A stretch of DNA of 64,000 nt, taken from assembly GCF_050920415.1 (NCBI RefSeq), contig NZ_CP169309.1; one strand, written 5' to 3'. Shown in pieces: positions 595 to 19,890 of this stretch; positions within the stretch are counted from its first letter, which is position 1; each line of letters begins with the position of its first letter. Under the pieces are notes generated by a model. It was not told where the DNA came from and made no database searches. It saw only the letters and a list, made by a program, of their open reading frames with translations. The DNA comes from Escherichia coli (lineage in GTDB: Bacteria > Pseudomonadota > Gammaproteobacteria > Enterobacterales > Enterobacteriaceae). Both the position numbers and the translations under genes were made by a program.

Positions 595-720
595 AGGGTG
601 AACAATATAAGTAGCGACAATAATCAGGATGTTCTGAAGCGTATCACCGGCGGGATTAACAAGTTTGAATTAAACGATAATAAAAATATTATTTCATTTT
701 AAACAATGAGTTAGAGTCGT

Positions 721-812: not shown

Positions 813-980
813 TGTTTTATGACGATGCCCGATATCTCACCCTTTAATAATTTAATTATTTTTTCACCCTATTAATAATTTGCCCCTTTCACGCCCCGTC
901 TATTTAATACCTCACCTTGTGTCACTGCCGGAATTGCGTGCACAAAAACGCCCATACCATTACAGCAGAGAAAGTAAGCC

Positions 981-1832
981 ATGCTGAAGTACAGTAAAAC
1001 GCCAGGCATCTTTAAATTAGAAGGTAATCGGCTCGGACGCCCCTACCATCGCCTGCCGACCCTGTTTACGGGGAATTTTGACGTGATTGATTCGCATCTC
1101 GGCAGCTACTTTCTCAAAAAGCATCGCAGCAATATCACTTTAAAAAAGATTGGCTGCGAAATGGATATTATTAATAAAAACGCCGAGTTGATGGTTTCCC
1201 AAGTCGGGCATCTGGCATTTGATATCGATCGCTCCTTATTGTTAATGCTGCTGGGCAATTTTTATGGTCTGGAGTCTTCTCTTGAAGAGGCAAAAGCCCA
1301 TAATGGCCTGCCGACCAAAACCGAAACACGATTAAAGAACCGACTCGCGCTGGATATCTGCACGCTGATATTTAATCTGCAAACCTCCGGTATTGCGCTG
1401 AAATTAAAGCTGGACAGCAGCACGGTAATTACCCACTGGGCGTATCAATTAACCTTTACCCTCGCGGGCGATGAAGAGAGCCGTTTTCGTATTTTGCTCG
1501 ACGATGCCCACACCGATTTTATTTTAAATCTGATCCGCCACAGTGAGCACAGTAAACCGCAGCAGGTGGCGAAATCCGTCAACAAGCCGGCACTGATTAA
1601 AGAGATCATCCGCTCTCTGCCGTTGACCCTGAACGTCAAAATCGCCGAGCTGTCGATGAATGTTGCCGATCTGGCGCAGATAAAAGCCGGAGATATTTTA
1701 CCCATCTCGCTGGGAGAAACGTTCCCGGTGGCGATTGGGCAATCTGAATTATTTAGCGCCCTGATTGTGGAAGACAAAGACAAACTGTTTTTGTCGGAGC
1801 TGGCGGGCAAAAATGAGAATAGCCATGAGTAA
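981..1832 (+). CDS. lfiM: Lateral flagellar motor switch protein, FliM-like
   Basis: 283-aa ORF, first gene of a fliMNPQR-flhBA-ordered operon; short FliM-like length. Confidence 0.6.
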   Translation: MLKYSKTPGIFKLEGNRLGRPYHRLPTLFTGNFDVIDSHLGSYFLKKHRSNITLKKIGCEMDIINKNAELMVSQVGHLAFDIDRSLLLMLLGNFYGLESSLEEAKAHNGLPTKTETRLKNRLALDICTLIFNLQTSGIALKLKLDSSTVITHWAYQLTFTLAGDEESRFRILLDDAHTDFILNLIRHSEHSKPQQVAKSVNKPALIKEIIRSLPLTLNVKIAELSMNVADLAQIKAGDILPISLGETFPVAIGQSELFSALIVEDKDKLFLSELAGKNENSHE

Positions 1833-2196
1833 GCAAGAAGATATTTTAACCGGGGATTTTGGCCTCACCGATGACGTTGCGCCTGTCACGAAACCCGCCG
1901 ACGCCGACACGCTGGTCACTCGCCTGGAAGACCGCTTTTCCGACTCGATGACGCTGCTGAAACGCATTCCGGTGACCTTAACGCTGGAAGTGTCGTCGGT
2001 GGAAATCATGTTAGCCGACCTGCTGAACATCGACGACGACACGGTGATTGAGCTGGATAAACTCGCCGGGGAGCCACTGGATATCAAAGTGAACAATATC
2101 CTGCTGGGCAAAGCGGAAGTGGTAGTGGTCAACGAGAAGTACGGCCTGCGCGTGCTGGAGTTTAACACCCGCGATATCAACGACCTGGCACCATGA
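1825..2196 (+). CDS. lfiN: Lateral flagellar motor switch protein, FliN-like
   Basis: ATG at 1825 (MSKQEDIL...), overlaps lfiM end; C-terminal ...VNNILLGKAEVVVVNEKYGLRVLEF resembles the FliN/SpoA domain. Confidence 0.7.
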   Translation: MSKQEDILTGDFGLTDDVAPVTKPADADTLVTRLEDRFSDSMTLLKRIPVTLTLEVSSVEIMLADLLNIDDDTVIELDKLAGEPLDIKVNNILLGKAEVVVVNEKYGLRVLEFNTRDINDLAP

Positions 2197-2945
2197 AACG
2201 CCGCGCTCAACTGACGCTGGGCCTGGCGCTGCTGGCGCTCGCGCCGCTGGCAATCGCCCAGGGCGGTGATATTGCGCTGCTTAACGTGGTCACTCATGGC
2301 AACACTCAGGAATACAGCGTCAAAATCCAGGTTCTGATTCTGATGACCCTCGTCGGTTTGTTGCCGACGATGGTGCTGATGATGACCTGCTTTACGCGCT
2401 TTATTATCGTGCTTTCACTACTGCGCCAGGCGCTGGGGCTGCAACAAACGCCGCCAAACCGCATTCTGATTGGCATTGCGCTCTCCCTCACCCTGCTGGT
2501 GATGCGCCCTGTCTGGCTGAATATTTACGACCACGCGGTGGTGCCGTTCGAAAACGATCAGATTACCCTGACCGATGCGCTAAGCACCGCCGCGACGCCG
2601 CTGAAACGCTTTATGCTGGCGCAGACCGACAAAAAAGCGATGGCGCAAATCATGACCATCGGTGGCGCGAAGGGCAATGCCGCCGACCAGGATCTCTCCA
2701 TCGTGGTGCCCGCCTATGTGCTGAGCGAGCTGAAAACCGCTTTCCAGATTGGCTTTATGATTTACATCCCGTTTCTGGTTATCGACCTGATTGTCGCCAG
2801 CGTATTGATGGCGATGGGGATGATGATGCTGTCGCCGCTGATCGTTTCGCTGCCGTTTAAACTGATGCTGTTTGTGCTGATCGACGGCTGGTCGCTGACC
2901 ATCGGCACGCTCACCACCAGCATTCGCGGGCTGGGGCTGGGCTGA
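2193..2945 (+). CDS. lfiP: Flagellar export apparatus protein, FliP-like
   Basis: 250 aa, signal peptide and multi-TM FliP-like sequence; start overlaps lfiN stop. Confidence 0.8.
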   Translation: MKRRAQLTLGLALLALAPLAIAQGGDIALLNVVTHGNTQEYSVKIQVLILMTLVGLLPTMVLMMTCFTRFIIVLSLLRQALGLQQTPPNRILIGIALSLTLLVMRPVWLNIYDHAVVPFENDQITLTDALSTAATPLKRFMLAQTDKKAMAQIMTIGGAKGNAADQDLSIVVPAYVLSELKTAFQIGFMIYIPFLVIDLIVASVLMAMGMMMLSPLIVSLPFKLMLFVLIDGWSLTIGTLTTSIRGLGLG

Positions 2946-2947
2946 TT

Positions 2948-3220
2948 ATGTTGACCGTAGACGTAGCCGCCGACATTGTCGCCAGCGGCATTAAAGTAGT
3001 GATTTTGCTGGTTTCGGTACTGGTGGTGCCAAGCCTGCTCGTTGGCCTGCTGGTGAGCGTGTTCCAGGCAGTGACGCAGATTAATGAGCAGACACTGAGC
3101 TTTTTACCGAGGCTGATTGTCACGCTGGTGGTGCTGGGGGTGTGCGGTAAATGGATGATTATCCAGTTGCATGATCTCTGCATTCATCTGTTTACCCAGG
3201 CCGCGTTGCTGGTGCATTAA
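2948..3220 (+). CDS. lfiQ: Flagellar export apparatus protein, FliQ-like
   Basis: 90-aa two-TM protein immediately after fliP-like gene. Confidence 0.8.
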   Translation: MLTVDVAADIVASGIKVVILLVSVLVVPSLLVGLLVSVFQAVTQINEQTLSFLPRLIVTLVVLGVCGKWMIIQLHDLCIHLFTQAALLVH

Positions 3221-3221
3221 G

Positions 3222-4004
3222 ATGCGCACAAGCGACGTTACGCAACTGATGGATCTGGCGCTGGGGCTGTGGTTTCCCTTCGTGCGCATTATGGCGTTTC
3301 TGCGCTATGTGCCGGTGCTGGATAACAGCGCCCTGACCGTGCGCGTGCGGATTATTTTGTCGCTGGCGCTGGCAATCATCATCACGCCGTTGATCCCCCA
3401 TCCCATTCCCCACGACCTGCTTTCGCTCAATAGCCTGATCCTGACGGTGGAGCAAATTTTATGGGGCATGTTATTCGGGCTGATTTTTCAGTTCCTGTTT
3501 CTGGCGCTACAGCTGGCCGGGCAAATTCTCTCGTTCAATATGGGGATGAGCATGGCGGTGATGAACGACCCGAGCAGCGGCGCATCGACCACCGTACTGG
3601 CGGAGCTAATCAACGTTTACGCGATCCTGCTGTTTTTTGCCATGGACGGGCATCTGCTGCTGGTGAGCGTGTTGTACAAGGGCTTCACCTACTGGCCGAT
3701 TGGCAACGCCCTGCATCCGCAAACCCTGCGCACCATCGCGCTGGCCTTTAGCTGGGTGCTGGCGTCGGCATCGCTGCTTGCGCTGCCGACCACTTTTATC
3801 ATGCTGATTGTGCAGGGCTGCTTTGGCCTGCTCAACCGCATTGCGCCGCCGCTGAATCTCTTTTCACTTGGCTTTCCCATCAACATGCTGGCAGGGCTGG
3901 TCTGTTTTGCCACCCTGCTCTACAACCTGCCGGATCACTATCTGCATCTGGCGAATTTTGTGTTGCAGCAGCTCGACGCGCTGAAAGGTCACTATGGCGG
4001 ATAG
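3222..4004 (+). CDS. lfiR: Flagellar export apparatus protein, FliR-like
   Basis: ATG at 3222 (MRTSDVTQL...), polytopic membrane protein of about 260 aa in FliR position. Confidence 0.75.
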   Translation: MRTSDVTQLMDLALGLWFPFVRIMAFLRYVPVLDNSALTVRVRIILSLALAIIITPLIPHPIPHDLLSLNSLILTVEQILWGMLFGLIFQFLFLALQLAGQILSFNMGMSMAVMNDPSSGASTTVLAELINVYAILLFFAMDGHLLLVSVLYKGFTYWPIGNALHPQTLRTIALAFSWVLASASLLALPTTFIMLIVQGCFGLLNRIAPPLNLFSLGFPINMLAGLVCFATLLYNLPDHYLHLANFVLQQLDALKGHYGG

Positions 4005-5133
4005 CAGCAGCGAAGAAAAAACAGAGAAACCTTCGGCGCAAAAGCTGCGTAAAGCGCGTGAAGAGGGACAACTGCCGCGCTCGAAGGATATGGGGCTGGC
4101 GGCGAGCCTGTTTGCGGCGTTTGTGGTGATCTCCAGCAGCTTCCCGTGGTATGCCGATTTTGTACGCGAGAGTTTTATCAGCGTGCATCAGTACGCGCAG
4201 GAGATTAATAACCCGGACGTTATCGGCCAGTTTCTGCGCCATCACCTGTTAATTCTCGGCAAGTTTATTCTCACCTTGCTGCCGATGCCCGCCGCCGCAC
4301 TGCTCTCCTCACTGGTGCCTGGCGGCTGGCTGTTCTTGCCGAAAAAAATCCTCCCGGATTTCAGCAAAATCAGTCCGTTAAAAGGCATTGGACGGCTGTT
4401 CTCCAGTGAACATCTTGCGGAAACAGGCAAGATGACGGCGAAGTCGGTGGTGGTGCTGGTGATGCTGTGGATTAGCCTGCGCAATAACTTTGCCGCCTTT
4501 CTCGGCCTGCAGGCGCTGCCGTTCAAACTGGCGATGAATGAGGGTTTGTCGCTCTACGCCAGCGTGATGCGCAACTTTGTCATCCTGTTTATTTTCTTCG
4601 CGCTTATCGACGTGCCGCTGGCGAAAGCCCTGTTCACCAAAGGGCTGAAGATGACTAAGCAGGAGCTGAAAGAAGAGTACAAAAATCAGGAGGGCAAGCC
4701 GGAAGTGAAAGCGCGTGTGCGGCGGCTGCAACGGCAGCTGGCGATGGGGCAAATCCGCAAAGTGGTGCCGAAAGCCAACGTGGTGATCACCAACCCGACC
4801 CACTACGCCGTGGCGTTGCAGTATGACCAGTCGCGCGCCGCCGCGCCGTTTGTAGTGGCAAAAGGTACCGATGAAATCGCCCTCTATATTCGTCAGGTCG
4901 CCACTGAAAATCAGGTGGAAGTGGTCGAGTTCCCGCGGCTGGCGCGCTCGGTTTACTACACCACCCAGGTGAACCAACAAATTCCGTTTCAGCTTTACCG
5001 GGCCATCGCCCACGTTCTGACCTACGTCCTGCAAATGAAACACTGGCGCGAGGGCGCACAGCCGCGCCCGGCCCTGAACAGACATATTTCCATTCCCAAA
5101 GAGGTGCTTAAACTGGATGGCGAAAACAACTAA
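3994..5133 (+). CDS. lfhB: Flagellar export switch protein, FlhB-like
   Basis: 379 aa, N-terminal TM region and FlhB-like C-terminal domain (...NPTHYAVAL...). Confidence 0.85.
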   Translation: MADSSSEEKTEKPSAQKLRKAREEGQLPRSKDMGLAASLFAAFVVISSSFPWYADFVRESFISVHQYAQEINNPDVIGQFLRHHLLILGKFILTLLPMPAAALLSSLVPGGWLFLPKKILPDFSKISPLKGIGRLFSSEHLAETGKMTAKSVVVLVMLWISLRNNFAAFLGLQALPFKLAMNEGLSLYASVMRNFVILFIFFALIDVPLAKALFTKGLKMTKQELKEEYKNQEGKPEVKARVRRLQRQLAMGQIRKVVPKANVVITNPTHYAVALQYDQSRAAAPFVVAKGTDEIALYIRQVATENQVEVVEFPRLARSVYYTTQVNQQIPFQLYRAIAHVLTYVLQMKHWREGAQPRPALNRHISIPKEVLKLDGENN

Positions 5134-7210
5134 ATCGTTCCTCGCGCTGCTGCGCGGCGGTAATCTCGGCGTACCGCTGGTGATCCTGTGTATTCTGGCG
5201 ATGGTTATTCTGCCGCTGCCACCTGCGCTGCTGGATATTCTGTTCACCTTCAACATTGTGCTGGCGGTGATGGTGCTGCTGGTGGCGGTGTCGGCGAAAC
5301 GACCGCTGGAATTCAGCCTGTTCCCGACCATTTTGCTGATCACCACCTTAATGCGCCTGACGCTCAACGTTGCTTCTACGCGCGTGGTGCTGCTGCACGG
5401 GCATCTCGGCGCGGGCGCGGCGGGTAAGGTGATTGAGTCGTTTGGTCAGGTGGTGATTGGCGGCAACTTTGTCGTCGGTTTCGTGGTGTTTATCATCCTG
5501 ATGATCATCAACTTTATCGTCGTCACCAAAGGGGCCGAGCGTATTTCCGAGGTTTCTGCCCGCTTTACCCTGGACGCGATGCCCGGCAAACAGATGGCGA
5601 TTGACGCCGATCTTAACGCCGGGTTGATCAACCAGGCGCAGGCGCAGACCCGCCGCAAAGATGTTGCCAGCGAGGCCGATTTCTACGGCGCAATGGACGG
5701 GGCATCGAAATTTGTGCGCGGGGATGCCATCGCCGGGATGATGATTCTGGCGATCAACCTGATTGGCGGCGTTTGTATCGGGATCTTCAAATACAACCTG
5801 AGCGCCAATGCCGCCTTCCAGCAGTATGTCCTGATGACCATTGGTGACGGGCTGGTAGCGCAGATCCCTTCCCTGCTGCTCTCTACCGCGGCAGCGATTA
5901 TCGTCACCCGCGTCAGCGACAACGGCGATATCGCCCATGATGTGCGCCACCAGCTGCTGGCAAGCCCGTCGGTGCTCTACACCGCCACCGGGATTATGTT
6001 CGTGCTGGCGGTGGTGCCGGGAATGCCGCACTTCCCGTTCCTGATGTTCAGCGCCCTGCTTGGTTTTACCGGCTGGCGAATGAGCAAACGCCCGCAGGCG
6101 GCGGAGGCGGAAGAGAAAAGCCTCGAAACGCTGACCCGCACCATCACCGAAACCAGCGAGCAACAGGTCAGTTGGGAAACCATTCCGCTGATCGAGCCCA
6201 TTAGTTTAAGCCTCGGTTACAAGCTGGTGGCGCTGGTGGACAAAGCGCAGGGTAATCCGCTCACCCAGCGGATTCGCGGCGTGCGGCAGGTGATTTCCGA
6301 CGGCAACGGCGTGCTGCTGCCGGAGATCCGCATTCGGGAAAATTTCCGCCTCAAGCCCAGCCAGTACGCCATTTTCATCAACGGCATTAAGGCTGATGAA
6401 GCGGATATTCCGGCGGATAAGCTGATGGCTCTGCCCTCCAGCGAAACCTACGGCGAGATTGACGGCGTGCTGGGGAACGACCCGGCGTATGGGATGCCGG
6501 TGACCTGGATTCAGCCCGCGCAGAAGGCGAAGGCGCTGAATATGGGGTATCAGGTGATCGACAGCGCCAGCGTAATTGCCACACATGTGAATAAGATTGT
6601 GCGCAGCTATATTCCTGATTTGTTTAACTATGACGATATTACTCAGCTGCATAACCGTTTGTCGTCGATGGCACCGCGCCTGGCGGAGGATTTGAGTGCG
6701 GCGCTGAATTACAGCCAGTTGCTGAAAGTGTACCGGGCACTGCTGACCGAAGGCGTTTCCCTGCGCGATATCGTCACCATCGCCACCGTGCTGGTCGCCA
6801 GTAGTACCGTCACCAAAGATCATATTCTGCTGGCGGCCGATGTGCGCCTGGCACTGCGGCGCAGCATTACCCATCCGTTCGTTCGCAAGCAGGAGCTGAC
6901 GGTGTATACGCTGAATAATGAGCTGGAAAACCTGCTGACCAACGTGGTGAATCAGGCGCAACAGGCTGGCAAAGTGATGCTCGATAGCGTGCCGGTGGAC
7001 CCGAATATGCTCAACCAGTTCCAGAACACGATGCCGCAGGTGAAGGAGCAGATGAAAGCCGCAGGTAAAGACCCGGTGCTGCTGGTGCCGCCGCAGCTGC
7101 GCCCATTGCTGGCGCGTTATGCGAAGTTGTTTGCGCCGGGGTTGCATGTGCTGTCGTATAACGAAGTGCCGGACGAGCTGGAGTTGAAGATTATGGGGGC
7201 GTTGAGTTGA
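5117..7210 (+). CDS. lfhA: Flagellar export gate protein, FlhA-like, full length
   Basis: 697 aa with FlhA-like TM region and cytoplasmic domain; uninterrupted ORF. Confidence 0.85.
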   Translation: MAKTTKSFLALLRGGNLGVPLVILCILAMVILPLPPALLDILFTFNIVLAVMVLLVAVSAKRPLEFSLFPTILLITTLMRLTLNVASTRVVLLHGHLGAGAAGKVIESFGQVVIGGNFVVGFVVFIILMIINFIVVTKGAERISEVSARFTLDAMPGKQMAIDADLNAGLINQAQAQTRRKDVASEADFYGAMDGASKFVRGDAIAGMMILAINLIGGVCIGIFKYNLSANAAFQQYVLMTIGDGLVAQIPSLLLSTAAAIIVTRVSDNGDIAHDVRHQLLASPSVLYTATGIMFVLAVVPGMPHFPFLMFSALLGFTGWRMSKRPQAAEAEEKSLETLTRTITETSEQQVSWETIPLIEPISLSLGYKLVALVDKAQGNPLTQRIRGVRQVISDGNGVLLPEIRIRENFRLKPSQYAIFINGIKADEADIPADKLMALPSSETYGEIDGVLGNDPAYGMPVTWIQPAQKAKALNMGYQVIDSASVIATHVNKIVRSYIPDLFNYDDITQLHNRLSSMAPRLAEDLSAALNYSQLLKVYRALLTEGVSLRDIVTIATVLVASSTVTKDHILLAADVRLALRRSITHPFVRKQELTVYTLNNELENLLTNVVNQAQQAGKVMLDSVPVDPNMLNQFQNTMPQVKEQMKAAGKDPVLLVPPQLRPLLARYAKLFAPGLHVLSYNEVPDELELKIMGALS

Positions 7211-7293
7211 TTGAGGATTCTTTTCCATACTTTGCAGCACCTGACACCATTAATTGACGTCACACTGCAAAGAGACTACGATGACACCATACA

Positions 7294-7593
7294 ATGACGT
7301 CATGGATTGATAGTATGATTAAGGTCAGCGCGCTAGGCTCTCGTCATAGAAAAACATTCGACGATGTAATGACGGAGCCGCCAAAATCTGGAATTAAATG
7401 GGATGATGTTGTTGCTCTCATTAAAGCGGTGGGTGGATCAATAAAAAATAACAACGGCTCCAGACGAAAATTTCAGATTGGAACGACCAAATTCAGCACA
7501 CATGAGCCGCATCCAAAGAATGTGATGGATAAAGGCGCAGTAGCAGGTCTTAAGGAGTGGTTTGTTAACTGTGTAGGGGTAGATTATGAATAA
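7294..7593 (+). CDS. HicA-like toxin (putative mRNA interferase) with N-terminal extension; alternative start ATG 7315
   Basis: ...GGSIKNNNGSRRKFQIGTTKFSTHEPHPKNVMDKGAVAGLKEW resembles the HicA/YcfA fold pattern; overlaps the downstream antitoxin-like gene by 8 bp. Confidence 0.5.
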   Translation: MTSWIDSMIKVSALGSRHRKTFDDVMTEPPKSGIKWDDVVALIKAVGGSIKNNNGSRRKFQIGTTKFSTHEPHPKNVMDKGAVAGLKEWFVNCVGVDYE

Positions 7594-7942
7594 AGCATCG
7601 AACATTATCACAATTAAAGGTCAACCAGCCGCAGTGACATTTGAAGCCGATATCAACGCATTTCGCGGCAAGTTCCTCAATGTAAACGGTTATTGTGACT
7701 TTGTAGCCACAAGTATTGAGGCATTATATCGTGAAGGCGAAAGCGCTCTGGATGAGTGGATGGCGGATTGTGAAGAGGACGGTATTGCCCCTTTTCGTGA
7801 AGAAGAAGAGCAAAAACGCCTGACGCTTCGTGTGCCGCATCACATCGATTCGCGGCTGACCATCGTCGCCAGACAACATTCCATTTCAAAAAACCAGCTC
7901 ATTATTGATGTCTTAGAACGTGAGTTTTCAGCCCAGATGTAA
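7586..7942 (+). CDS. HicB-like antitoxin with C-terminal ribbon-helix-helix DNA-binding domain
   Basis: 118 aa; C-terminal KRLTLRVPHHIDSRLTIVARQHSISKNQLIIDVLEREF is RHH-like; N-terminal part HicB-like; translationally coupled to the upstream toxin-like ORF. Confidence 0.55.
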   Translation: MNKASNIITIKGQPAAVTFEADINAFRGKFLNVNGYCDFVATSIEALYREGESALDEWMADCEEDGIAPFREEEEQKRLTLRVPHHIDSRLTIVARQHSISKNQLIIDVLEREFSAQM

Positions 7943-7974
7943 ACAGGTCGGATGCCGCGTGGCATCCGACCTGT
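7943..7974. terminator. Perfect hairpin between convergent hicB-like gene and yafL (bidirectional terminator or REP-like)
   Basis: acaggtcggatgcc-gcgt-ggcatccgacctgt inverted repeat. Confidence 0.5.
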
Positions 7975-7998
7975 TGCCAGTTCGTCAATATTACCCAT

Positions 7999-8757
7999 TT
8001 ACAAAATCGTCTCTTCCGTCAAAATCCGCCGCGCGCCTAAAAAATGATCCTGCCAGAAAGGTTCAGCTAACCGACTTACCCGAATGGTTTCCCCGGTGCG
8101 CGGCGACTCGATAAACTGACCGTCTCCCAGATACACGCCCATATGGTCGGCAATCTCGCGGCTGTGAATATGGAAAAACAGCAAATCTCCCCGGCGCAGG
8201 TCGTTATTTGCCACAATGGTTGCCCGACGGTAGTGATACATCTCATTGGCCGTGCGCGGGAGTTTCGCCTCGAGGATCTTGTTGTAGGCATAAAAAACCA
8301 ACCCGCTACAGTCGAAGCCTTGATCGGGTCGCGTGCCACCCCAGACGTATGGCTTGCCAAGCTGCTGCTCCAGACGGTGAATCGCCACTTCGGTGATATT
8401 ATGCAGGTGGTTACTGCTGAGGAAATGATTGTTTTCCGCCAGCGCCTGCCAGCGTCTGTCACTCGCCTTGAGCGGCGCAGGAAACCATTCTGGATGCTGT
8501 TTTATCTGTTCGCGGTTGTGTTGCCGCAGTGCCCTTCTGCTTTCGGCATTGCCTTCCACAATATAGCTGGCCTGCTTTTTCAGATGAATTTGGTACTGTT
8601 TTAATAAACGCGCACGGTTTTGCATCCGCTGGCGGGCGGCGTAGCTGAAAGAGATATGTGATGTGGTGGCGCTGGCGAGTAAAGGGAGCAAAACGCATAA
8701 CGAAAACACGCCTGGATGCAGAAATCTGCCGAGCAAGAACGAAGACATGAAGGACAT
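7999..8757 (-). CDS. yafL: NlpC/P60-family peptidoglycan endopeptidase lipoprotein
   Basis: Signal peptide, ...GFDCSGLVFYAY... catalytic Cys motif and ...HMGVYLGDGQFIESP... His motif; position matches K-12 yafL. Confidence 0.85.
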   Translation of the reverse strand: MSFMSSFLLGRFLHPGVFSLCVLLPLLASATTSHISFSYAARQRMQNRARLLKQYQIHLKKQASYIVEGNAESRRALRQHNREQIKQHPEWFPAPLKASDRRWQALAENNHFLSSNHLHNITEVAIHRLEQQLGKPYVWGGTRPDQGFDCSGLVFYAYNKILEAKLPRTANEMYHYRRATIVANNDLRRGDLLFFHIHSREIADHMGVYLGDGQFIESPRTGETIRVSRLAEPFWQDHFLGARRILTEETIL

Positions 8758-9048
8758 AAACCGGCTGAATGAAGGTGAGAATTTTAAAAGACCGGAGGAG
8801 TAAACGGGATTATTAATTGCTTATTTGCATATTACTATTGAGGTTTCATAATCTTAGGAAATAAATGATACATGCGCTTTTCGGACTAATGAAAACTGCC
8901 CTTGTGCTAAATTTGTAAACCCTGCGCCGACAGGCTTGCGTAAAACTCTTTTGGTGATAATGTGAGCCTTCCAAATCCAGACTATTCCGATTTGGGATCC
9001 ATTTTGCCGTCCTGGCGTGTGTAACCGTTTTATCAAGGAATAAGCAGT

Positions 9049-9789
9049 ATGCGTAAAATCGCATTAATTCTTGCGATGTTGTTGATCCCGTGCGTTTCGT
9101 TTGCCGGTTTGCTGGGCAGCAGTAGCTCGACCACGCCAGTGAGCAAAGAGTATAAGCAGCAGTTGATGGGATCCCCTGTCTACATCCAGATCTTCAAGGA
9201 AGAACGTACGCTCGATCTCTACGTCAAAATGGGCGAGCAATATCAGCTGCTCGACAGTTATAAAATCTGTAAATATTCCGGCGGCTTAGGGCCAAAACAG
9301 CGTCAGGGCGATTTCAAAAGCCCGGAAGGGTTTTATAGCGTCCAGCGTAATCAGTTAAAACCAGACAGCCGTTACTACAAAGCGATTAATATTGGTTTCC
9401 CCAATGCCTATGACCGTGCGCATGGTTATGAAGGGAAATACCTGATGATCCACGGCGATTGTGTTTCCATCGGCTGCTACGCAATGACCAATCAAGGTAT
9501 TGATGAGATCTTCCAGTTCGTTACTGGTGCGCTGGTGTTTGGTCAGCCGAGCGTGCAAGTGAGTATTTACCCGTTCCGCATGACCGACGCCAATATGAAG
9601 CGCCATAAATATTCCAACTTTAAGGACTTCTGGGAGCAACTGAAGCCGGGTTACGACTACTTTGAACAGACCCGTAAGCCACCGACCGTTTCTGTGGTCA
9701 ATGGCCGTTACGTGGTCAGCAAGCCGTTAAGCCACGAAGTTGTGCAGCCACAACTGGCATCAAACTACACGCTCCCCGAGGCAAAATAA
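9049..9789 (+). CDS. yafK: L,D-transpeptidase-fold periplasmic protein YafK
   Basis: 246 aa, signal peptide, ...[14 protein letters not shown]... YkuD-type motif. Confidence 0.85.
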
Positions 9790-10527
9790 GCGCCATTCGC
9801 CTGGCATAATCTTTTGCCAGGTTTCATTGCCCGTCAGCGGCTGTGTCGCAATCACCGTGACCACATCATTCGGTGTGGTCTGCGAGCTGAAGTCGATTTC
9901 CACATCCTGATCCAGCAACGTTGCCACGCCAAACGGCGCGCGGCGGGTGATCCAGTGTAAATTAGTCGAGCAATACGCCATTACATAGCGCCCGTCAGAA
10001 AGCAGCATGTTGAAAACGCCCTTCTGCCGCAGTTCATCCGCCAGTGAGGCGATATATTTAAACACTGCCGCCATGTTGCCCGGTGTGCGTGGGTAACGCT
10101 GCGTTAATTTATGCAGCAGCCAGCAAAAGGCTTTTTCGCTGTCGGTTTCACCTACCGGGCGGAAGTTGCCGGTTTCCAGTGACTTGTACCCCGTCAGTTG
10201 CCCGTTATGGGCATAAGTCCAGTTGCGTCCCCATAACTCGCGGGTAAACGGATGAGTATTTTCCAGTGCCACCTCGCCCCGATTCGCCTGGCGAATATGA
10301 GCAATTACCGAGCAGGATTTGATTGGATAGTCCTGGACCAGTTTAGCGATAGGGGAATTAAAGCTGGGTTGCGGATCTTTAAATGTGCGACAGCCTTTAC
10401 CTTCGTAAAAGGTAATGCCCCAGCCATCTTTATGTGGCCCGGTTCCACCACCACGCTGCACCAGACCGGTGAAACTAAAGCAGATATCGGTAGGGACGTT
10501 AGCGCTCATCCCGAGCAATTCGCACAT
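9760..10527 (-). CDS. yafJ: Class II glutamine amidotransferase YafJ
   Basis: Starts [12 protein letters not shown] (N-terminal Cys nucleophile); convergent overlap with yafK. Confidence 0.85.
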
Positions 10528-10589: not shown

Positions 10590-10730
10590 GGTCGGATGCA
10601 GCGTGAACGCATTATTCGGCCTACGGTTCGGGTACAGATTTGTAGGCATGATAAGACGCGTCAGCGTCGCATCAGGCATCAGCGCACAAGTGCCGGATGC
10701 GGCGTAAACGCCTTATCCAGCCTACGCCAG
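10590..10730. repeat. BIME/REP cluster between yafJ and gmhA
   Basis: Multiple REP-like palindromes (gccggatgcggcgtaaacgccttatccagcctacg and inverted copies). Confidence 0.55.
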
Positions 10731-14664: not shown

Positions 14665-15435
14665 GTGCCTGGTTTGAAGATTACGCTTTTGCAGCAACCA
14701 CTGGTGTGGATGGATGGTCTTGCCAACCTGCGCCATTTTGATCGTCAACTGGAAGGTATTACCGGGCGCGATGTGATCGTTCTACCGGAGATGTTTACCA
14801 GCGGCTTTGCCATGGAAGCGGCAGCTTCGTCGCTAGCACAAGATGACGTAGTGAACTGGATGACAGCTAAAGCGCAGCAGTGCAATGCGCTGATTGCAGG
14901 CAGTGTTGCATTACAAACGGAGTCTGGTTCGGTTAACCGCTTTTTGCTGGTTGAGCCGGGCGGCACGGTACATTTTTATGATAAGCGTCATCTGTTCCGA
15001 ATGGCAGATGAGCATCTGCATTATAAAGCGGGCAATGCGCGAGTGATTGTGGAATGGCGCGGCTGGCGTATTTTGCCGCTGGTGTGCTACGACCTGCGTT
15101 TTCCGGTGTGGTCGCGCAATCTCAACGATTATGACCTCGCCATCTACGTCGCCAACTGGCCTGCCCCACGCTCTCTGCACTGGCAGGCATTGCTGACAGC
15201 CCGCGCGATTGAGAATCAGGCGTATGTGGCGGGATGCAATCGCGTCGGCAGCGATGGCAACGGCTGCCATTATCGCGGTGACAGCCGGGTGATTAATCCA
15301 CAGGGCGAGATTATCGCTACTGCCGACGCGCATCAGGCAACGCGCATTGATGCGGAGCTGTCGATGGCGGTGTTAAGGGAATATCGCGAAAAGTTTCCGG
15401 CATGGCGGGATGCGGATGAGTTTAGGTTGTGGTGA
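14665..15435 (+). CDS. yafV: Nitrilase-superfamily omega-amidase YafV
   Basis: GTG start at 14665 preceded by [16 protein letters not shown]...; 771 bp as in K-12. Confidence 0.9.
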
Positions 15436-15484
15436 GTGGGGGTTGTGTTTAGGGCCGGGGAGAGTTGGGGTATGACTACGAAAG

Positions 15485-15690
15485 CCCGCTCTCCTGCGAC
15501 CACTTTTATCATAGGAGTGTGGAAGTGCTTTTCCATCAATCGCGATGACGTCTTTGTCATCTGAAGAATGACATTCACGCATCCGGTTAATAAAGCATTC
15601 GTGAAATTATACTGAACGGATACAAGACATAACTCTAATTATGGTGCCGTGAACAGGATTACCATTTTCAAAATTACGATATTATTTGCA
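15485..15690 (-). mobile_element. Internal fragment of an H-repeat (ISAs1-family) transposase gene (yafF-like remnant)
   Basis: About 85% identical over about 185 bp to 17423-17610; encodes ...[17 protein letters not shown]... on minus strand. Confidence 0.7.
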
Positions 15691-15706
15691 GTAATTATGT
15701 TATTAA

Positions 15707-16219
15707 TCATTGTGATATTTCCATCTCTGTGATTAATACCGGATACGCATTTAATTGCAGAGTTTGCACGAAATTATCGCAGATAACTGGCAATAACAAT
15801 AACCCATCAGCCCGCTGCTGTAATACCTCCATTCGTTCTACTGATTCAACATTAACAACCAAACCAAGGGCATTTAGCGATTTAAGGATCTCCAGATGTT
15901 CACTCATCCAGCGCAGAGAAAAAGGATCATCACCAATTATAAAAACAGGCCCCCAGCCGGTTAATAACTGGCGTTTCATTACGGAACCAGGATGAAGTCG
16001 AGTACATATTACAGGAAATACCCCCTGTTGCGATGGTTCCGATGATGTGGATAATTCAGAAATATTTTCCATTGTTAGTGAAGAATTAACATCCATTAAT
16101 AATGGTGAAACAACCTCACTTTCCTTGCTAGTAATGGCTGCACTAATCTGAGAGGAAAATAACAATATTATTACGTATAAACTCATTTTTAACATAACAA
16201 ATTCAATCCGTTTATTCAT
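15707..16219 (-). CDS. Hypothetical secreted or membrane protein (N-terminal hydrophobic signal); may correspond to the K-12 yafU/ykfM region
   Basis: 170-aa ORF in low-GC DNA, MSLYVIILLFSSQISAA signal-like segment; no recognisable domain. Confidence 0.45.
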   Translation of the reverse strand: MNKRIEFVMLKMSLYVIILLFSSQISAAITSKESEVVSPLLMDVNSSLTMENISELSTSSEPSQQGVFPVICTRLHPGSVMKRQLLTGWGPVFIIGDDPFSLRWMSEHLEILKSLNALGLVVNVESVERMEVLQQRADGLLLLPVICDNFVQTLQLNAYPVLITEMEISQ

Positions 16220-16285
16220 GTTATAGAATAATGATGCTATAAATCATCATTAATGTTCAATTATTTAATCACACAGTTTAAAAAA

Positions 16286-16789
16286 TCATTGACCAATGTG
16301 AATTGGCAATGTACCACTCAAGTTAAAATCACTGAATATTTTATCAATTTCTCTTGCAGTTTCTATATATTTAACCTCTTTCGTACTTGCATTATAAATA
16401 GCCCAAGCCTCGGGATGGGATGTTCCACCAAACCTTACAAAAAAACTTGATTTCATATTATTATATAAATTAACATCAGGAAAAGGATCTTCTCCAAAAT
16501 TAGTAGTATTGAATAATGAAAGTTCGTATCGCTTAGAAAATTCTATTGGTAGGATAGCTTCACTGCCATCAATAGCATTCATCCAGAGTTTGTTACCATT
16601 ATATTCCAACAATAATCTCTGTTTTGCATGTGTTTTATCTCGTTCTTTAACGACAGCGAATACCTTTTTAACAACCTGCTGTGCGGATGGTCCTATTGTA
16701 TTACCAAAAGATGGCAACCCGATTTTGCCATAAACACTCTCCTGAATGAAATAAATATCCGTTTTATCGGCCTCGACAATATCTACCAT
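16286..16789 (-). CDS. Hypothetical cytoplasmic protein
   Basis: 167-aa ORF, AT-rich, no signal peptide, no recognisable motif. Confidence 0.4.
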   Translation of the reverse strand: MVDIVEADKTDIYFIQESVYGKIGLPSFGNTIGPSAQQVVKKVFAVVKERDKTHAKQRLLLEYNGNKLWMNAIDGSEAILPIEFSKRYELSLFNTTNFGEDPFPDVNLYNNMKSSFFVRFGGTSHPEAWAIYNASTKEVKYIETAREIDKIFSDFNLSGTLPIHIGQ

Positions 16790-17101
16790 TTATCCCTCCA
16801 AACAAGACCTGACTCCAGGACAAGAGCATAGTGTGTAGTAAACACATCATGCTCTTGCCCTGACCATTGAAATAACAACTTTCGTTTGTTTACTGTACGC
16901 TGTCTAAATAGCTGCGTGGAATAAAGTTGCACTTTTTATCATCCCTTGTAGAGCAAGATTACGAAAGCCCGCCCCCGCAAGGGCTGACGCGAGGTAGTCT
17001 CTGTCCGCAGCTGCTTTTCACATCTTACATCTTGCCCCTGCCTTGAGTATCTTATCTTTCGTTAAAATATTAATAGCGATCTTCCGTATCCCTGAAAATA
17101 A

Positions 17102-17781
17102 TTATGCTGCATTTCCTCTTCTTATTTTGAAGTCGTCTTTATTCATTACCACTTCCAGATGCCAGTGCAATTTATTCTCCACTTGCCAGTGATTTCGGTT
17201 CGCTGTGGCGAACTTCTCTGCGGTTAAATCAGCAGAAATGCTATAATATCTGACCGTCATTTCGGGATTTTTCTTTTGTTCTGCTATTATTGAGCGAAAT
17301 GAGACTGCCATGCATAATTTCTTCAGCCCTTTCCATTCAAACGTAAAATCAATAAATTCATCAGAGACATGCAAACAATATGAAGACGGATTTTAATGAC
17401 ATAAGTTGCTCCCTTGTGACGAGTTTTATCATAAGAGTGCCGGAGCGTTTTTCCATCAATTGCAATGACGTCTTTATCATCTGAAGAATGACATTCACGC
17501 ATCCGGTTAATAAAGCATTCGTGAAATTTTGCAGGACTGATACATGATACAACTCTGGCAATAGTATCGTGAACAGGAATACCATTTTCAAAATCACCAT
17601 ATTGCTTCAAAAAATCGAGATGAGTTTCCCCGAAATCCTCTATATCTTCCCAGCCTTCTGCACCCGAAATAACGGCGCAAATAGTCAACAGTAGAATATC
17701 CGATAATTTATGCTCCACTTTCCAGGCTTGTCTGTAATCGGGGATAATAGAAATATGTTCCATCAATTTTTTAAGTTCCAT
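17102..17781 (-). pseudogene. H-repeat (ISAs1-family) transposase pseudogene with internal deletion, frameshift and 3' truncation
   Basis: ORF 17323-17781 starts [28 protein letters not shown]...; ORF 17102-17374 carries ...[24 protein letters not shown]...; middle of protein missing. Confidence 0.8.
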
Positions 17782-17987
17782 TTTGTTCTCCTTAATTATG
17801 TAAGGAGTATTTGATCATGTATAAGCAATAAAAAACAGCTTCAGGTAATGAGGAATATCTCAATTTTTAAACATAAAATGCGAATTATTTAGTACAAAAA
17901 AGCAGCGTTAAGTGAGTAGGCCACCGGAACCTCCCCGACAGCCTCTCGCAGAACCGTACGTGAAACTCTCGCTTCATACGGCTCCCG

Positions 17988-18605
17988 TCAGGCAAACGCG
18001 CTTCCTGGTCCTGCTTTCCAGTGGGCAAACAACTCCGGCTTCTCTTTTGACAGCCTTTCCATTAGCTGACACGCCTTCGTCTTTCTATACCGCAGGGTTT
18101 TATATTTCTTTCTCGCCCACGCAATCAGCGTCAGATTAATATATCTGCATACTTTCTTCATCGCTGATTTGTGGTATCTCGCGTAATAATTCAGCCACCC
18201 CGATATTATCGGATTCAGCCACTTCGCAATATCTTCGAGACTCATCTCCACCCTGCGTCTGATCCACAGTTTCCTGAGTTTTCCAATCATGCCTTTCTGC
18301 GCACGGTTACTCGCCGCCGGGCTGAAACTCGTAAAGAGGTTTCCCCGCCGGTGGTTACGTGCTCTTCGCGCTCTGAACGTATACCCCAGAAAATCAAACT
18401 GCACTGTTTCATGGTTCGCCTGTCGTTCGCTGTCTTTGCAGTAAACTACTTTCGTTTTCTCCGGATGTAATTCCAGTCCACATTCCTGAAAACGTTTTGC
18501 CAGCTTATTCAGTAATTCCTCTGCCTGTTGTTTACTGCCACAATGAATTAATCCATCATCTGCATAACGGCACAGGGAATTTCCGGATAATGTAACGTCA
18601 GCCAT
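17988..18605 (-). pseudogene. Group II intron reverse transcriptase/maturase, C-terminal fragment in a different frame
   Basis: Contains RYADDGLIHC active-site motif and maturase/X-domain-like tail; overlaps upstream fragment. Confidence 0.8.
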
Positions 18606-19504
18606 TTATCAAACACATAGTGCAGAAATAAATTCGCCAGTACCGGGCTGATGACTCCACCCTGTGGCGTACCTTTATTTCTTTCCTTCAGTGTTCCATC
18701 CGGCATCTGCACCGGCGCTGTCAGCCACCGGCGAATAGACAGTCTTACCCATTTATCCGCACAATGTTTATCTACTGCCCTGAGTAATAAATCGTGGGAG
18801 ATATTATCGAATAACCCTTTAATATCAAACTCAAGACACCAGTCGTATTGCCAGCAACGTTTTCTGGTGACTGCTATTGCATCCAGCGCTGATTTTCCAT
18901 GCCGGTATCCGTATGAATCATTCAGGAAATAACGCTCCACTAATGGTTCAAACGTTACCAGCACCGTCATCTGCGCTATTCGATCGCTTACTGTCGGTAT
19001 TCCTAAAAGTCTTTTGCTGCCATCCTTCTTCGGAATTTCCACCGCACGCACTGGCGGCGGCATCCAGCTTCCCGACGATAACCTGTTCCAGATTTTGTAC
19101 AGATTTCCTTTCAGATCCCGCTCAAAATCTTTCAGCGTCTGGTTATCCACTCCGGCAGCTCCGGCATTCGCCTTTATCCGCCGGTACGCTTCCACCACAT
19201 GCAATTTACTGACCTGAAACGGTTTTGTCTGTTCACACACAGCCTCCTCCTGCCTACAGTTGGGCTGTGATGCAGACTGCCCGACGCTGTCCCTTCGCTC
19301 CACGTTCATTACAAACGCTTCCTCACTACTACGAACAGCTCTGCCCCGGTTTCGCACATCGATACTCTCATACTCATAATTTCGGTTATTTGTATTTCTC
19401 TCTTGAAATTGCGACGACCGGTTCCCGTAGTTCCTGCAAAGAGCCTGATACAGCGTCATGCCTGCTATACACCGGACACCATTCACGCAGCATTCGGAAT
19501 TCAC
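18548..19504 (-). pseudogene. Group II intron reverse transcriptase/maturase, N-terminal fragment
   Basis: RT domain motifs (...GIPTVSDRIAQ..., ...GTPQGGVISPVLANLFL...); frame breaks before the YADD motif. Confidence 0.8.
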
Positions 19505-19843
19505 CCGTAAATTAATCCCGGCGGTATCACGAAACCTCCGGTTTTGATGTCACTTAGGACTAACGACGTTTCAACACAGGTTCGGGTTTACTCATCTCAC
19601 TGTATCTCACATAGGATCAGATCTCGTCTGATCGTTCCCCCTGCGCTCACTACCATGGCTCTTTACCACAGCAGCCGGGGTTGTTTGGGACCGACTTCCG
19701 ACAGCAGATCCCGGTGGGCCTGCCACCATCTCTTCACAAGCTTATGCTTATTACATGCAAAACGTCCCGTTTTGCATCTTTGTGCCTACGGCACACGATG
19801 ATCTTTCCCTGATTACTTGACCTTTCCCTGGGAGTACAGAGTG

Positions 19844-19890
19844 AAGTTTCCGGCATGGCGGGATGCGGATGGGTTTGAACTGGGGTGATT
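19844..19890 (+). repeat. Imperfect second copy of the yafV 3' end (41 of 47 nt identical to 15389-15435)
   Basis: gtgaagtttccggcatggcgggatgcggatgggtttgaactggggtga would encode [19 protein letters not shown], against [18 protein letters not shown] at the end of yafV. Confidence 0.7.

What the first reader, a model, noticed from the sequence alone, without database searches (positions are those of the whole stretch)
15485..17781. Two anonymous small genes bracketed by H-repeat (ISAs1-family) remnants
A ~200-bp H-repeat fragment (15485-15690) and a deleted, frameshifted H-repeat transposase gene (17102-17781) share about 85% identity and flank two AT-rich ORFs: 15707-16219 (170 aa, N-terminal signal-like segment) and 16286-16789 (167 aa, cytoplasmic). 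H-repeats are classically linked to Rhs elements, so this could be an orphan toxin/immunity-type cassette, or simply the equivalent of K-12 yafU/ykfM. I cannot decide from sequence alone.
Basis: inference. Interest (0 to 1): 0.45.

Follow-up and report, generated by a model that had tools for sequence, protein, structure and literature searches.

The report
Candidate T6SS toxin–immunity gene pair
Two small genes at the yafV edge of the E. coli type VI secretion island form a conserved pair: an unannotated 19-kDa protein whose distant relatives sit next to Hcp or inside T6SS clusters, followed by an exported thioredoxin-fold protein borrowed from conjugative elements. The pair is most likely an undescribed toxin–immunity cassette, and the flanking H-repeats are incidental IS debris.

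Summary
A 196-nt ISAs1/H-repeat fragment (15488-15683) and a deleted, frameshifted H-repeat (16950-17900) share 84% identity. They flank two AT-rich minus-strand genes.

The interpretation needs revising:
- The genes are not K-12 yafU/ykfM. No similarity was found.
- No Rhs element is annotated in the island.
- The H-repeats are incidental. The same pair occurs without them in a Superficieibacter-like genome.

ORF1 (15707-16195) is a Sec-exported DUF2859/TIGR03765 protein. This family is otherwise a backbone gene of MPF_G conjugative elements. Its domain models as a cysteine-less thioredoxin fold.

ORF2 (16286-16789) matches no Pfam, NCBIfam or PDB family. It has about 20 remote relatives. One lies 16 bp after an orphan hcp, and one lies inside a T6SS core cluster after tssBC. 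Where neighbours could be read, each is paired with a small multi-spanning membrane protein.

In Escherichia and in the Superficieibacter-like genome, ORF2→ORF1 is always the last co-oriented unit after variable T6SS-1 cargo. Both genes are under purifying selection (dN/dS 0.17-0.36).

Best reading, at about 0.5 confidence: a new Hcp-type T6SS effector with an immunity protein recruited from a conjugative element. Toxicity, secretion and the ORF2 fold remain untested.

The parts
15474..15489 (.). 16-nt junction sequence GACTACGAAAGCCCGC, repeated at 16957-16972. In K-12 it joins yafV directly to the H-repeat 3' end (yafF).
15488..15683 (-). Internal fragment of an ISAs1/H-repeat transposase gene (about aa 66-130). 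It is the remnant of the complete copy found at this position in L003/L008.
15707..16195 (-). ORF1, 162 aa (an alternative ATG at 16219 gives 170 aa). It has a Sec signal peptide, a disordered linker of about 40 aa, and a DUF2859/TIGR03765 domain with a cysteine-less thioredoxin fold. Proposed periplasmic immunity or partner protein.
16286..16789 (-). ORF2, 167 aa, cytoplasmic, no cysteine, preceded by the Shine-Dalgarno sequence GGAGGG. It belongs to an undescribed family with invariant E17, G99, D101, P102 and L108. Proposed T6SS cargo effector.
16816..16862 (-). Inverted repeat with 21-nt arms (about 18 of 21 positions complementary), in the leader 26-72 nt upstream of ORF2. Fold z-score is -4.4. 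Homology with the L003 allele ends at 16830, so the hairpin is not fully conserved there. Role unknown.
16950..17900 (-). H-repeat copy 2 (ISEc1-like, ISAs1 family). It is a pseudogene with a 312-bp internal deletion and a frameshift.
17901..19796 (-). Group II intron inserted about 26 bp inside the 5' end of H-repeat copy 2. It is absent from strain NC101.
19797..19812 (-). Displaced terminal nucleotides of H-repeat copy 2, beyond the intron. The end position is approximate.
19830..19876 (+). 47-nt copy (87% identical) of the last codons and stop codon of yafV. It probably marks an older island/yafV junction.
19943..22162 (-). Tle1-like T6SS phospholipase effector. It is the last recognised T6SS cargo gene upstream of the pair and is co-oriented with it.

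Best explanation
ORF2 and ORF1 are proposed to be a self-contained two-gene T6SS cargo cassette. It is carried as the last co-oriented unit of the T6SS-1 (aspV-yafV) island.

Proposed mechanism (inferred, not shown):
- ORF2 is a 19-kDa protein with no signal peptide. It would be loaded into the Hcp tube and delivered into neighbouring cells.
- It would act on the cell envelope, from the periplasmic or inner-membrane side. The family-invariant Glu17 and Asp101 are candidate catalytic or contact residues.
- ORF1 is exported by Sec and would neutralise incoming ORF2 in the periplasm of sibling cells.
- ORF1 was recruited from the DUF2859/PFL_4695 backbone gene of an enterobacterial MPF_G conjugative element. 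There it replaced the small polytopic membrane protein that partners ORF2 relatives in other lineages.

The H-repeats, the group II intron and the yafV stub are insertion and recombination scars around the cassette, not parts of it.

Shown: gene reality, pairing, T6SS linkage, family memberships, and the ORF1 fold and export signal. Inferred: toxicity, Hcp loading, immunity and the target.
For: 1. Real, co-inherited genes. dN/dS is 0.17-0.36. Three allele pairs (E. coli major, E. coli minor, Superficieibacter-like) keep the order ORF2 then ORF1 with 27-90 nt spacing.

2. Position. The pair is always the last genes, on the same strand, after differing T6SS-1 cargo:
- Tle1 plus three DUF3304 genes (window).
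- Hcp-VgrG-DUF2169-PAAR-like (L013).
- DUF4150, PAAR-like, WD40 and Trx genes (L008).
- Hcp-VgrG-DUF4123-538aa-313aa-PAAR at a different chromosomal site with neither yafV nor an H-repeat (L020).

3. Remote ORF2 relatives (29-40% identity):
- P0203 starts 16 bp after an orphan hcp.
- P0212 lies between tssBC and an array of small exported or membrane genes inside a T6SS core cluster.
- P0207, P0208 and P0210 are tight or overlapping bicistrons.

4. Partners of the relatives that could be examined (P0203, P0207, P0208, P0212 and the Salmonella STM4156-type protein) are small proteins with 3-4 hydrophobic spans. ORF1 is Sec-exported. All examined partners are therefore extracytoplasmic, as expected for immunity to an envelope-acting toxin.

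5. Size. ORF2 is 18.9 kDa, within the range of known Hcp-borne effectors (my own knowledge).

6. Polymorphism. Two alleles occur at one E. coli locus (68% and 76% aa identity). ORF2 and ORF1 are 59% and 44% identical between genera whose Hcp is 100% identical.

7. About 200 genomes keep ORF1 sequence without ORF2 (754 versus 554 genomes). In PT62, intact ORF2 is tolerated without ORF1 where the T6SS is deleted.
Against: - No toxin or immunity domain was detected in either protein by Pfam, NCBIfam, PADLOC, PHROGs or PDB sequence search.
- The ORF2 fold is unknown. AlphaFold2 with 4 sequences gave pLDDT 39.
- ORF1 keeps all 12 family-invariant residues of ICE DUF2859 proteins and is 55-62% identical to them in the domain. 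It may therefore retain a conjugation-type structural function rather than be a dedicated immunity protein.
- The cassette stays about 98% identical while neighbouring cargo is swapped. That also fits a neutral island-end hitch-hiker.
- Three of the remote relatives have no T6SS gene within 5-6 kb, and the Salmonella relative lies beside a T3SS effector gene.
- TssB (74%) and VgrG (69%) diverge between the two genera almost as much as ORF2 does, so the rate argument is weak.
- In the roughly 200 ORF1-only genomes, ORF1 looks like a frameshifted pseudogene rather than a retained orphan immunity gene.
Confidence: 0.5

Rival explanations
1. The pair is non-toxic T6SS or envelope accessory equipment. 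ORF1 would keep the structural, protein-binding role that DUF2859 has in MPF_G type IV secretion systems. That role is analogous to F-plasmid TraF, a thioredoxin-like protein without CXXC needed for pilus extension. ORF2 would be a cytoplasmic Hcp-associated adaptor or chaperone, anchored elsewhere by small membrane partners.
For: - DUF2859 is a backbone gene between an SLT transglycosylase and TraD in ICEs.
- ORF1 retains all family-invariant residues.
- ORF1 has a thioredoxin fold lacking CxxC, like TraF (PMC11315126).
- The cassette stays constant while cargo varies.
- No toxin motif was found.
Against: - The pair is present in only 10-14% of E. coli genomes. A near-identical T6SS-1 core exists with or without particular cargo.
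- ORF2 relatives occur as orphan bicistrons far from any T6SS.
- The partner is non-homologously replaced across lineages. That is typical of immunity genes and unusual for machine parts.
- Allelic polymorphism occurs at a single locus.
Confidence: 0.2
2. Both genes are orphan immunity genes, one cytoplasmic and one periplasmic. They would be kept at the island end to protect against effectors of other strains, with no cognate toxin in this genome.
For: - Terminal position after the cargo.
- No toxin motif in ORF2.
- ORF1 sequence persists without ORF2 in about 200 genomes.
Against: - ORF2 relatives sit in the effector position, directly after hcp or tssBC, and are themselves followed by membrane-protein partners.
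- ORF2 and ORF1 co-vary as a pair.
- In the ORF1-only genomes, ORF1 is frameshifted.
Confidence: 0.12
3. A decaying remnant of an integrative conjugative element. ORF1 would be left over from an ICE that once sat at aspV, and ORF2 would be an unrelated ORFan.
For: - ORF1 matches TIGR03765 at 120.6 bits against a cut-off of 59.75.
- RefSeq names it 'integrating conjugative element protein'.
- tRNA genes such as aspV are common ICE integration sites (my own knowledge).
Against: - No other ICE gene is present. The canonical neighbours PilL-like, CxxC-Trx, SLT, TraD and DtrJ are all absent.
- Both genes are under purifying selection across genera.
- The T6SS-linked ORF1 sequences form one clade of 11 among 118.
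- ORF2 is unrelated to the ICE neighbours.
Confidence: 0.05
4. Passenger genes of an ISAs1 (H-repeat) composite transposon or an Rhs-associated H-repeat cassette.
For: Direct H-repeat copies flank the pair in this strain and in about 540 other genomes.
Against: - Both copies are defective.
- The pair is at a single chromosomal site in almost every genome. There are 763 places in 758 genomes, 760 of them on chromosomes.
- Other lineages have one H-repeat or none.
- No Rhs gene is annotated in the island.
Confidence: 0.03

Closest known systems
   Same: - A cytosolic effector of about 17-22 kDa without a signal peptide, followed by a small envelope-located partner.
- Located after hcp/vgrG cargo or as an orphan bicistron.
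- Polymorphic alleles.
   Different: - No sequence match to any library family.
- Activity, secretion and neutralisation are untested.
- The partner here is a thioredoxin-fold protein of conjugative-element origin rather than a dedicated immunity family.
DUF2859 / TIGR03765 (PFL_4695 family) proteins of MPF_G integrative conjugative elements (PAPI-1/PAGI-5, pUM505, Salmonella ICEs)
   Same: - ORF1 matches both models well above their cut-offs.
- It keeps the 12 invariant residues, including G-D-D..S..W.
- It has the same length and signal peptide, and is 55-62% identical in the domain to enterobacterial ICE members.
   Different: - ORF1 is not in an ICE: no TraD, SLT, CxxC-Trx or PilL neighbours.
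- It is paired instead with ORF2 at the end of a T6SS island.
- It forms a separate clade.
- It has two cysteines that the ICE members compared here (L010, L011) lack.
F-plasmid TraF (periplasmic thioredoxin-like T4SS protein without CXXC)
   Same: - Exported, with a thioredoxin-type fold and the redox motif replaced.
- Encoded beside a CxxC-containing thioredoxin-like protein in the same transfer region, as with TrbB in F and the 227-aa CPxC protein in ICEs (PMC11315126).
   Different: - Analogy of fold and context only. No sequence similarity was shown.
H-rpt / ISEc1 (ISAs1 family) elements, including K-12 'H-rpt min.5' = yafF
   Same: - Both flanking repeats match the ISAs1 transposase model.
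- The yafV-side junction is the one seen in K-12.
   Different: - Both copies are defective.
- They are not associated with an Rhs element here and are dispensable for the gene pair.

Membership tests
ISAs1-family IS (H-repeat) | Match to the ISAs1 DDE transposase model | tested here: met
   NF033564: E 8e-36 (17323-17781), 1.3e-21 (17102-17374), 8e-4 (15373-15582). Pfam DDE_Tnp_1_assoc: 1.3e-32.
ISAs1-family IS (H-repeat) | Intact element with a complete transposase ORF | tested here: not met
   Copy 2 has a 312-bp deletion, a frameshift and an intron insertion. Copy 1 is a 196-nt internal fragment.
DUF2859 / TIGR03765 (PFL_4695 ICE protein) | Score above the curated cut-off of the family models | tested here: met
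   TIGR03765: 120.6 bits against a cut-off of 59.75. PF11072: 99.5 bits against a cut-off of 25.
DUF2859 / TIGR03765 (PFL_4695 ICE protein) | Family-invariant residues retained | tested here: met
   P69, G70, R75, F85, G88, D89, D90, S93, W96, A109, G111 and L112 are invariant in 120 sequences including ORF1.
DUF2859 / TIGR03765 (PFL_4695 ICE protein) | Located in a conjugative-element transfer region (SLT upstream; TraD and DtrJ-like downstream) | tested here: not met
   The window and 4 other contexts have no ICE gene nearby. Canonical ICE contexts were seen.
Thioredoxin superfamily | Thioredoxin-type alpha/beta fold | tested here: met
Thioredoxin superfamily | CxxC redox motif at the beta1-alpha1 junction | tested here: not met
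   By inspection of the model's secondary structure, the junction carries the invariant G88-D89-D90-x-x-S93. ORF1's two cysteines are absent from the ICE homologues compared.
T6SS effector-immunity pair | Genetic linkage to T6SS genes, co-oriented with cargo | tested here: met
   Five Escherichia or Superficieibacter-like contexts. Relatives lie after hcp and after tssBC.
T6SS effector-immunity pair | Tight bicistron of a signal-less protein and an envelope-located partner | tested here: met
   Spacing is 27-90 nt or overlapping. ORF1 has a signal peptide, and partners of the relatives have 3-4 hydrophobic spans.
T6SS effector-immunity pair | Recognisable toxin domain or delivery motif (MIX, PAAR, Rhs and similar) | tested here: not met
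   No hit for 22 family members in Pfam or NCBIfam, and none in PDB.
T6SS effector-immunity pair | T6SS-dependent secretion, toxicity, and neutralisation by the partner | not testable with these tools
   Requires experiments; see the next steps.
Rhs element | Rhs core / YD-repeat gene adjacent to the H-repeat | tested here: not met
   No Rhs gene is annotated between yafV and aspV in the 99.95%-identical strain.
K-12 yafU / ykfM orthologues | Sequence similarity to YafU or YkfM | tested here: not met
   BLASTP E 0.43 for ORF1 against YkfM, and no alignment for ORF2 against YafU. YafU and YkfM are visibly hydrophobic in translation (by inspection).
Composite transposon | Functional flanking IS copies and occurrence at several loci | tested here: not met
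   Both IS copies are defective. There are 763 places in 758 genomes, essentially one chromosomal site each.

The most novel reading that the evidence does not exclude
ORF2 founds an undescribed family of small T6SS antibacterial effectors. The family has invariant Glu17 and Asp101 and a conserved G-x-D-P-x-P...L-Y and G-G core. It is delivered through Hcp and acts on the cell envelope. Its immunity partner has been swapped during evolution from a polytopic membrane protein to an exported, cysteine-less thioredoxin-fold protein taken from the transfer machinery of a conjugative element. That would be an example of a type IV secretion component re-used as a type VI immunity protein.
Probability: 0.4. 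Interest if true: 0.6.

Novelty: new member of a known kind. Interest (0 to 1): 0.45.

Why it matters
If confirmed, this would add a new effector family to the E. coli T6SS-1 arsenal. The pair is present in about 10% of complete genomes, including ExPEC/APEC strains such as NC101 and IMT5155.

It would also assign a first function-related context to two 'hypothetical' protein families. In addition, it would show that a conserved conjugation-apparatus protein (DUF2859) can be recruited as a partner of a T6SS cargo protein.

It corrects an automatic annotation as well. 'Integrating conjugative element protein' wrongly suggests that an ICE is present at this locus.

If not confirmed, the locus is an ordinary island-end mosaic of IS debris.

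Tried and rejected
- K-12 equivalence. The window was aligned to the K-12 aspV-fadE region. Only yafV and the H-repeat 3' end (yafF) correspond. YafU and YkfM are unrelated.
- ICE remnant. ORF2 was compared by BLASTP and hhalign with every gene upstream of DUF2859 in ICEs: the PilL-like lipoprotein, the CxxC-Trx protein, the SLT protein, and the pUM505 and Pantoea neighbours. There was no similarity; the best result was probability 0.6%.
- Defence system or phage origin. PADLOC and PHROGs gave nothing. The 'phage' tblastn hits are Salmonella chromosomal contigs.
- Paralogues. hmmsearch --max with the ORF2 profile against all ORFs of the window and 22 loci found only the orthologues.
- ORF2 structure. 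AlphaFold2 with the 4-sequence alignment gave pLDDT 39 and was not used for fold search.
- The afdb50 fold library was unavailable.
- SUKH/SMI1-like immunity. I suspected this from an 'LPxEF ... GG ... W' pattern, but there is no Pfam support even at E 10, so I dropped it.
- Rate argument. The pair diverges faster than Hcp, but not clearly faster than TssB or VgrG, so this is weak evidence only.
- The genome-contig scan with the ORF2 alignment found only E. whittamii.
- Literature searches for DUF2859/PFL_4695, yafV/aspV plus T6SS, STM4155/4156 and the WP accessions found nothing about these genes beyond ICE backbone listings.
Full report
**Where the window is.** The window comes from E. coli. 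It is 99.95% identical over 29 kb to strain MFDS1022581. The finding lies just past the 3' end of yafV (stop at 15435). This is one edge of the roughly 36-kb T6SS-1 island, which runs to tRNA-Asp aspV at 51593-51669. Reading from yafV into the island, the features are:
- a 16-nt junction motif;
- an H-repeat fragment;
- ORF1;
- ORF2;
- a leader hairpin;
- a second, defective H-repeat carrying a group II intron in its end;
- a 47-nt copy of the yafV 3' end;
- the T6SS cargo: Tle1, three DUF3304 genes, DUF4123, VgrG fragments, an M23 peptidase, PAAR, Tae4 and others, followed by the tss core genes.

**Check of the observation.** It is confirmed.
- A 196-nt direct repeat (15488-15683 and 17408-17603) is 84% identical.
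- Both arms match the ISAs1 transposase model.
- The second copy lacks 312 bp relative to a near-complete copy and is frameshifted.
- Its real extent is 16950-17900 plus about 16 nt beyond a 1.9-kb group II intron (17901-19796). That intron is absent from strain NC101.
- The two ORFs are at the stated coordinates. RefSeq begins ORF1 at 16195, giving 162 aa.
- GC content falls to 29-40%.
- Both ORFs are genuine genes. Against alleles 50-76% identical, dN/dS is 0.17-0.31 for ORF2 and 0.30-0.36 for ORF1.

**What the flanks say.**
- In K-12, yafV is joined through the same 16-mer directly to the 3' end of an H-repeat. That stub is yafF, followed by yafU and ykfM.
- ORF1 and ORF2 have no similarity to YkfM or YafU. 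Those two K-12 proteins are visibly hydrophobic in translation. The 'K-12 equivalent' reading is therefore refuted.
- No Rhs gene is annotated anywhere in the island.
- H-repeat arrangements differ between lineages:
  - a complete copy between yafV and ORF1, and none on the other side (L003, L008);
  - a complete second copy (E. whittamii L009);
  - no H-repeat at all (L020-L022).
- The homology shared between the divergent alleles is exactly ORF1 plus ORF2 plus about 40 nt of leader (15707-16830).
- The pair sits at one chromosomal site in 758 of 5,426 complete E. coli genomes.
- The H-repeats are therefore IS debris around the pair. They are neither a transposon that moves it nor a sign of an Rhs system.

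**ORF1.**
- It matches PF11072 (DUF2859, E 2e-28) and TIGR03765 (PFL_4695 family ICE protein, 120.6 bits against a cut-off of 59.75).
- In its normal setting the family is a backbone gene of MPF_G conjugative elements and plasmids. The gene order there is PilL-like lipoprotein, a 227-aa CPxC thioredoxin-like protein, an SLT lytic transglycosylase, DUF2859, TraD, DtrJ-like and so on (PMC12629846).
- None of those neighbours is present here.
- ORF1 keeps all 12 residues that are invariant in a 120-sequence alignment.
- The T6SS-linked ORF1 proteins form a single clade, 11 of 118 sequences. The nearest ICE members are 55-62% identical in the domain.
- AlphaFold2 with that alignment gives a confident domain (residues 60-162, pLDDT 84-97). 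It is preceded by a signal peptide and a disordered linker that varies between alleles.
- By inspection of the model's secondary structure, the position where the redox CxxC would be carries the invariant G-D-D-x-x-S.
- DUF2859 is thus an exported, redox-inactive thioredoxin-fold protein. The closest analogy is F-plasmid TraF, a CXXC-less thioredoxin-like T4SS protein encoded alongside the CXXC protein TrbB (PMC11315126). This is an analogy of fold and context only.

**ORF2.**
- It is 167 aa and 18.9 kDa, with no cysteine and no hydrophobic segment. A good Shine-Dalgarno sequence (GGAGGG) precedes the start codon.
- It has no hit in Pfam (even at E 10), NCBIfam, PADLOC, PHROGs or PDB sequences.
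- Word-based searching found only Escherichia proteins plus one allele at 60% identity.
- The exhaustive HMMER search of 1.84 billion representatives found 29 relatives. About 20 of them are full-length proteins of roughly 190 aa, 29-40% identical.
- In the 22-sequence alignment, G99, D101, P102 and L108 are invariant. E17 is invariant in all 19 sequences that have the N-terminal region.
- None of the 22 members hits any Pfam, NCBIfam or PDB family. In these libraries the family is undescribed.

**Context of the pair.** In all five contexts examined, ORF2 then ORF1 are the last genes, on the same strand as the preceding T6SS cargo. The cargo itself differs:
- the Tle1 cluster (window and NC101);
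- Hcp-VgrG-DUF2169-PAAR-like effector in B2 ExPEC strains;
- a PAAR-like/WD40/thioredoxin cluster in strain A16 and E. whittamii;
- Hcp-VgrG-DUF4123-effector-immunity-PAAR, followed by a GntR/ABC-transporter/GGT neighbourhood, in contigs whose GntR protein is identical to one from Superficieibacter sp..

The last case has neither yafV nor an H-repeat. It shows that the linkage is to the T6SS cargo array rather than to the chromosomal site.

**Context of the remote ORF2 relatives.**
- P0203 begins 16 bp after an orphan hcp gene.
- P0212 lies inside a T6SS core cluster directly after tssB-tssC. It is followed by a run of small exported or membrane proteins.
- P0207, P0208 and P0210 are tight or overlapping two-gene units in otherwise housekeeping surroundings.
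- A shorter Salmonella relative of the STM4156 type matches ORF2 residues 61-154 at 36% identity, with a database-level E of 6e-10. It lies beside sseK1 and a convergent membrane-protein gene.
- For P0203, P0207, P0208, P0212 and the Salmonella relative, the adjacent partner is a small protein with three or four hydrophobic spans. The P0210 partner could not be examined because no DNA was available.
- None of the partners scanned matches the DUF2859 profile.

**Interpretation.** The recurring pattern has three elements:
- a protein of about 19-22 kDa without a signal peptide;
- a position in the cargo slot of T6SS loci or next to hcp;
- tight coupling to a small envelope-located partner that has been replaced non-homologously between lineages.

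This is the pattern of a T6SS effector-immunity cassette whose effector acts on the periplasmic or membrane side. On that reading ORF2 is a new Hcp-type effector. ORF1 would be its immunity protein in Escherichia and the Superficieibacter-like lineage, recruited from a conjugative element.

Supporting but weak observations:
- Two alleles exist at one E. coli locus.
- ORF2 and ORF1 are 59% and 44% identical between genera whose Hcp is identical. However, TssB is 74% and VgrG 69% identical, so the contrast is modest.
- ORF1 sequence is present in 754 genomes but ORF2 in only 554. In the CFT073 type, ORF2 has been replaced by IS630 and ORF1 is frameshifted.
- In strain PT62 the whole T6SS is deleted and ORF1 is split by IS1, yet ORF2 is intact. 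ORF2 is therefore not harmful in its producer's cytoplasm.

**What is not shown.** Toxicity, secretion, Hcp binding, ORF1-ORF2 binding and the target are all inferred. ORF1's full retention of the ICE-family invariants leaves open a conjugation-type structural role, and the pair could be accessory rather than toxic. I put the effector-immunity reading at about 0.5, an accessory role at 0.2, orphan immunities at 0.12, an ICE remnant at 0.05 and an H-repeat transposon or Rhs cassette at 0.03.

**Novelty and score.** T6SS effector-immunity cassettes are a known kind. This would be a new family within that kind, with an unusual immunity origin. The ICE-related annotation in RefSeq is misleading for this locus. 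Interest is moderate (0.45): the case is well supported by context and easy to test, but it is not categorically new and has no biochemical evidence yet.

Noticed in passing
window 17901-19796: A group II intron (Rfam RF00029 and RF01999) is inserted about 26 bp inside the 5' end of the defective H-repeat. In the window its reverse-transcriptase reading frame is split into two overlapping ORFs (17988-18605 and 18548-19504). RefSeq annotates an intact ltrA in the 99.95%-identical strain.
   Followed up: partly
window 19830-19876: A 47-nt copy (87% identical) of the last codons and stop of yafV lies between the intron and the Tle1 stop codon. This suggests that the segment carrying the H-repeats and the ORF pair was placed between an older island/yafV junction and the present yafV.
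   Followed up: partly
window 15474-15489 and 16957-16972: A 16-nt direct repeat, GAYTACGAAAGCCCGC, brackets the 1.48-kb segment made of the H-repeat fragment, ORF1 and ORF2. In K-12 a single copy joins yafV to the H-repeat 3' end. It could be a footprint of the recombination that created or removed the segment.
   Followed up: partly
window 22026-23673: Three tandem DUF3304 genes (Tli1-type immunity by annotation) are 86-88% identical to each other at the DNA level, upstream of Tle1. In NC101 one copy is frameshifted.
   Followed up: no
window about 1-7200 and 7315-7940: The window starts inside a complete lateral-flagella (Flag-2) gene cluster (fliI to flhA). K-12 retains only remnants of this cluster (my own knowledge). 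It is followed by a HicA/HicB toxin-antitoxin pair. Coordinates were transferred from locus L001 with an offset of 4601.
   Followed up: no
L025 6959-7630 (Salmonella Senftenberg), also L026 and L027: A 106-119-aa Salmonella protein of the STM4156 type shares the C-terminal domain of ORF2 (36% identity). It sits between the T3SS effector gene sseK1 and a convergent four-span membrane-protein gene (STM4155), next to rpoC. No paper in the library mentions STM4156.
   Followed up: partly
L033 5001-10062 (metagenome contig): Inside a T6SS core cluster, the ORF2 relative is followed by about eight small genes. By inspection of their sequences, several look exported or membrane-bound. One, a 126-aa protein containing GHPHGH, looks enzyme-like. 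This may be an effector/immunity array.
   Followed up: no
L020 1077-1595 versus window 29331-29846: The Hcp protein is 100% identical between the Superficieibacter-like contig and this E. coli. The adjacent TssB and VgrG are only 74% and 69% identical. This points to recent exchange of hcp alone.
   Followed up: no
L024 (E. coli PT62) 6308-10311: In this pigeon isolate the entire T6SS-1 island between the second H-repeat and aspV is missing. IS1 copies lie at the break, and a further IS1 splits ORF1. This is a natural T6SS-minus, ORF1-minus, ORF2-plus strain.
   Followed up: partly
L003/L008/L009, gene immediately upstream of ORF2 or of the second H-repeat: A 137-139-aa cytoplasmic thioredoxin-domain protein (motif CNNC) ends the PAAR-like/WD40/411-aa cargo cluster next to the pair. 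This is a second thioredoxin-fold gene in the neighbourhood. Its relation to the ORF2-ORF1 pair is unknown.
   Followed up: no
window 722-798 and 10645-10722: Two Rfam naRNA4 (REP-derived nucleoid-associated RNA) matches score above the gathering threshold.
   Followed up: no
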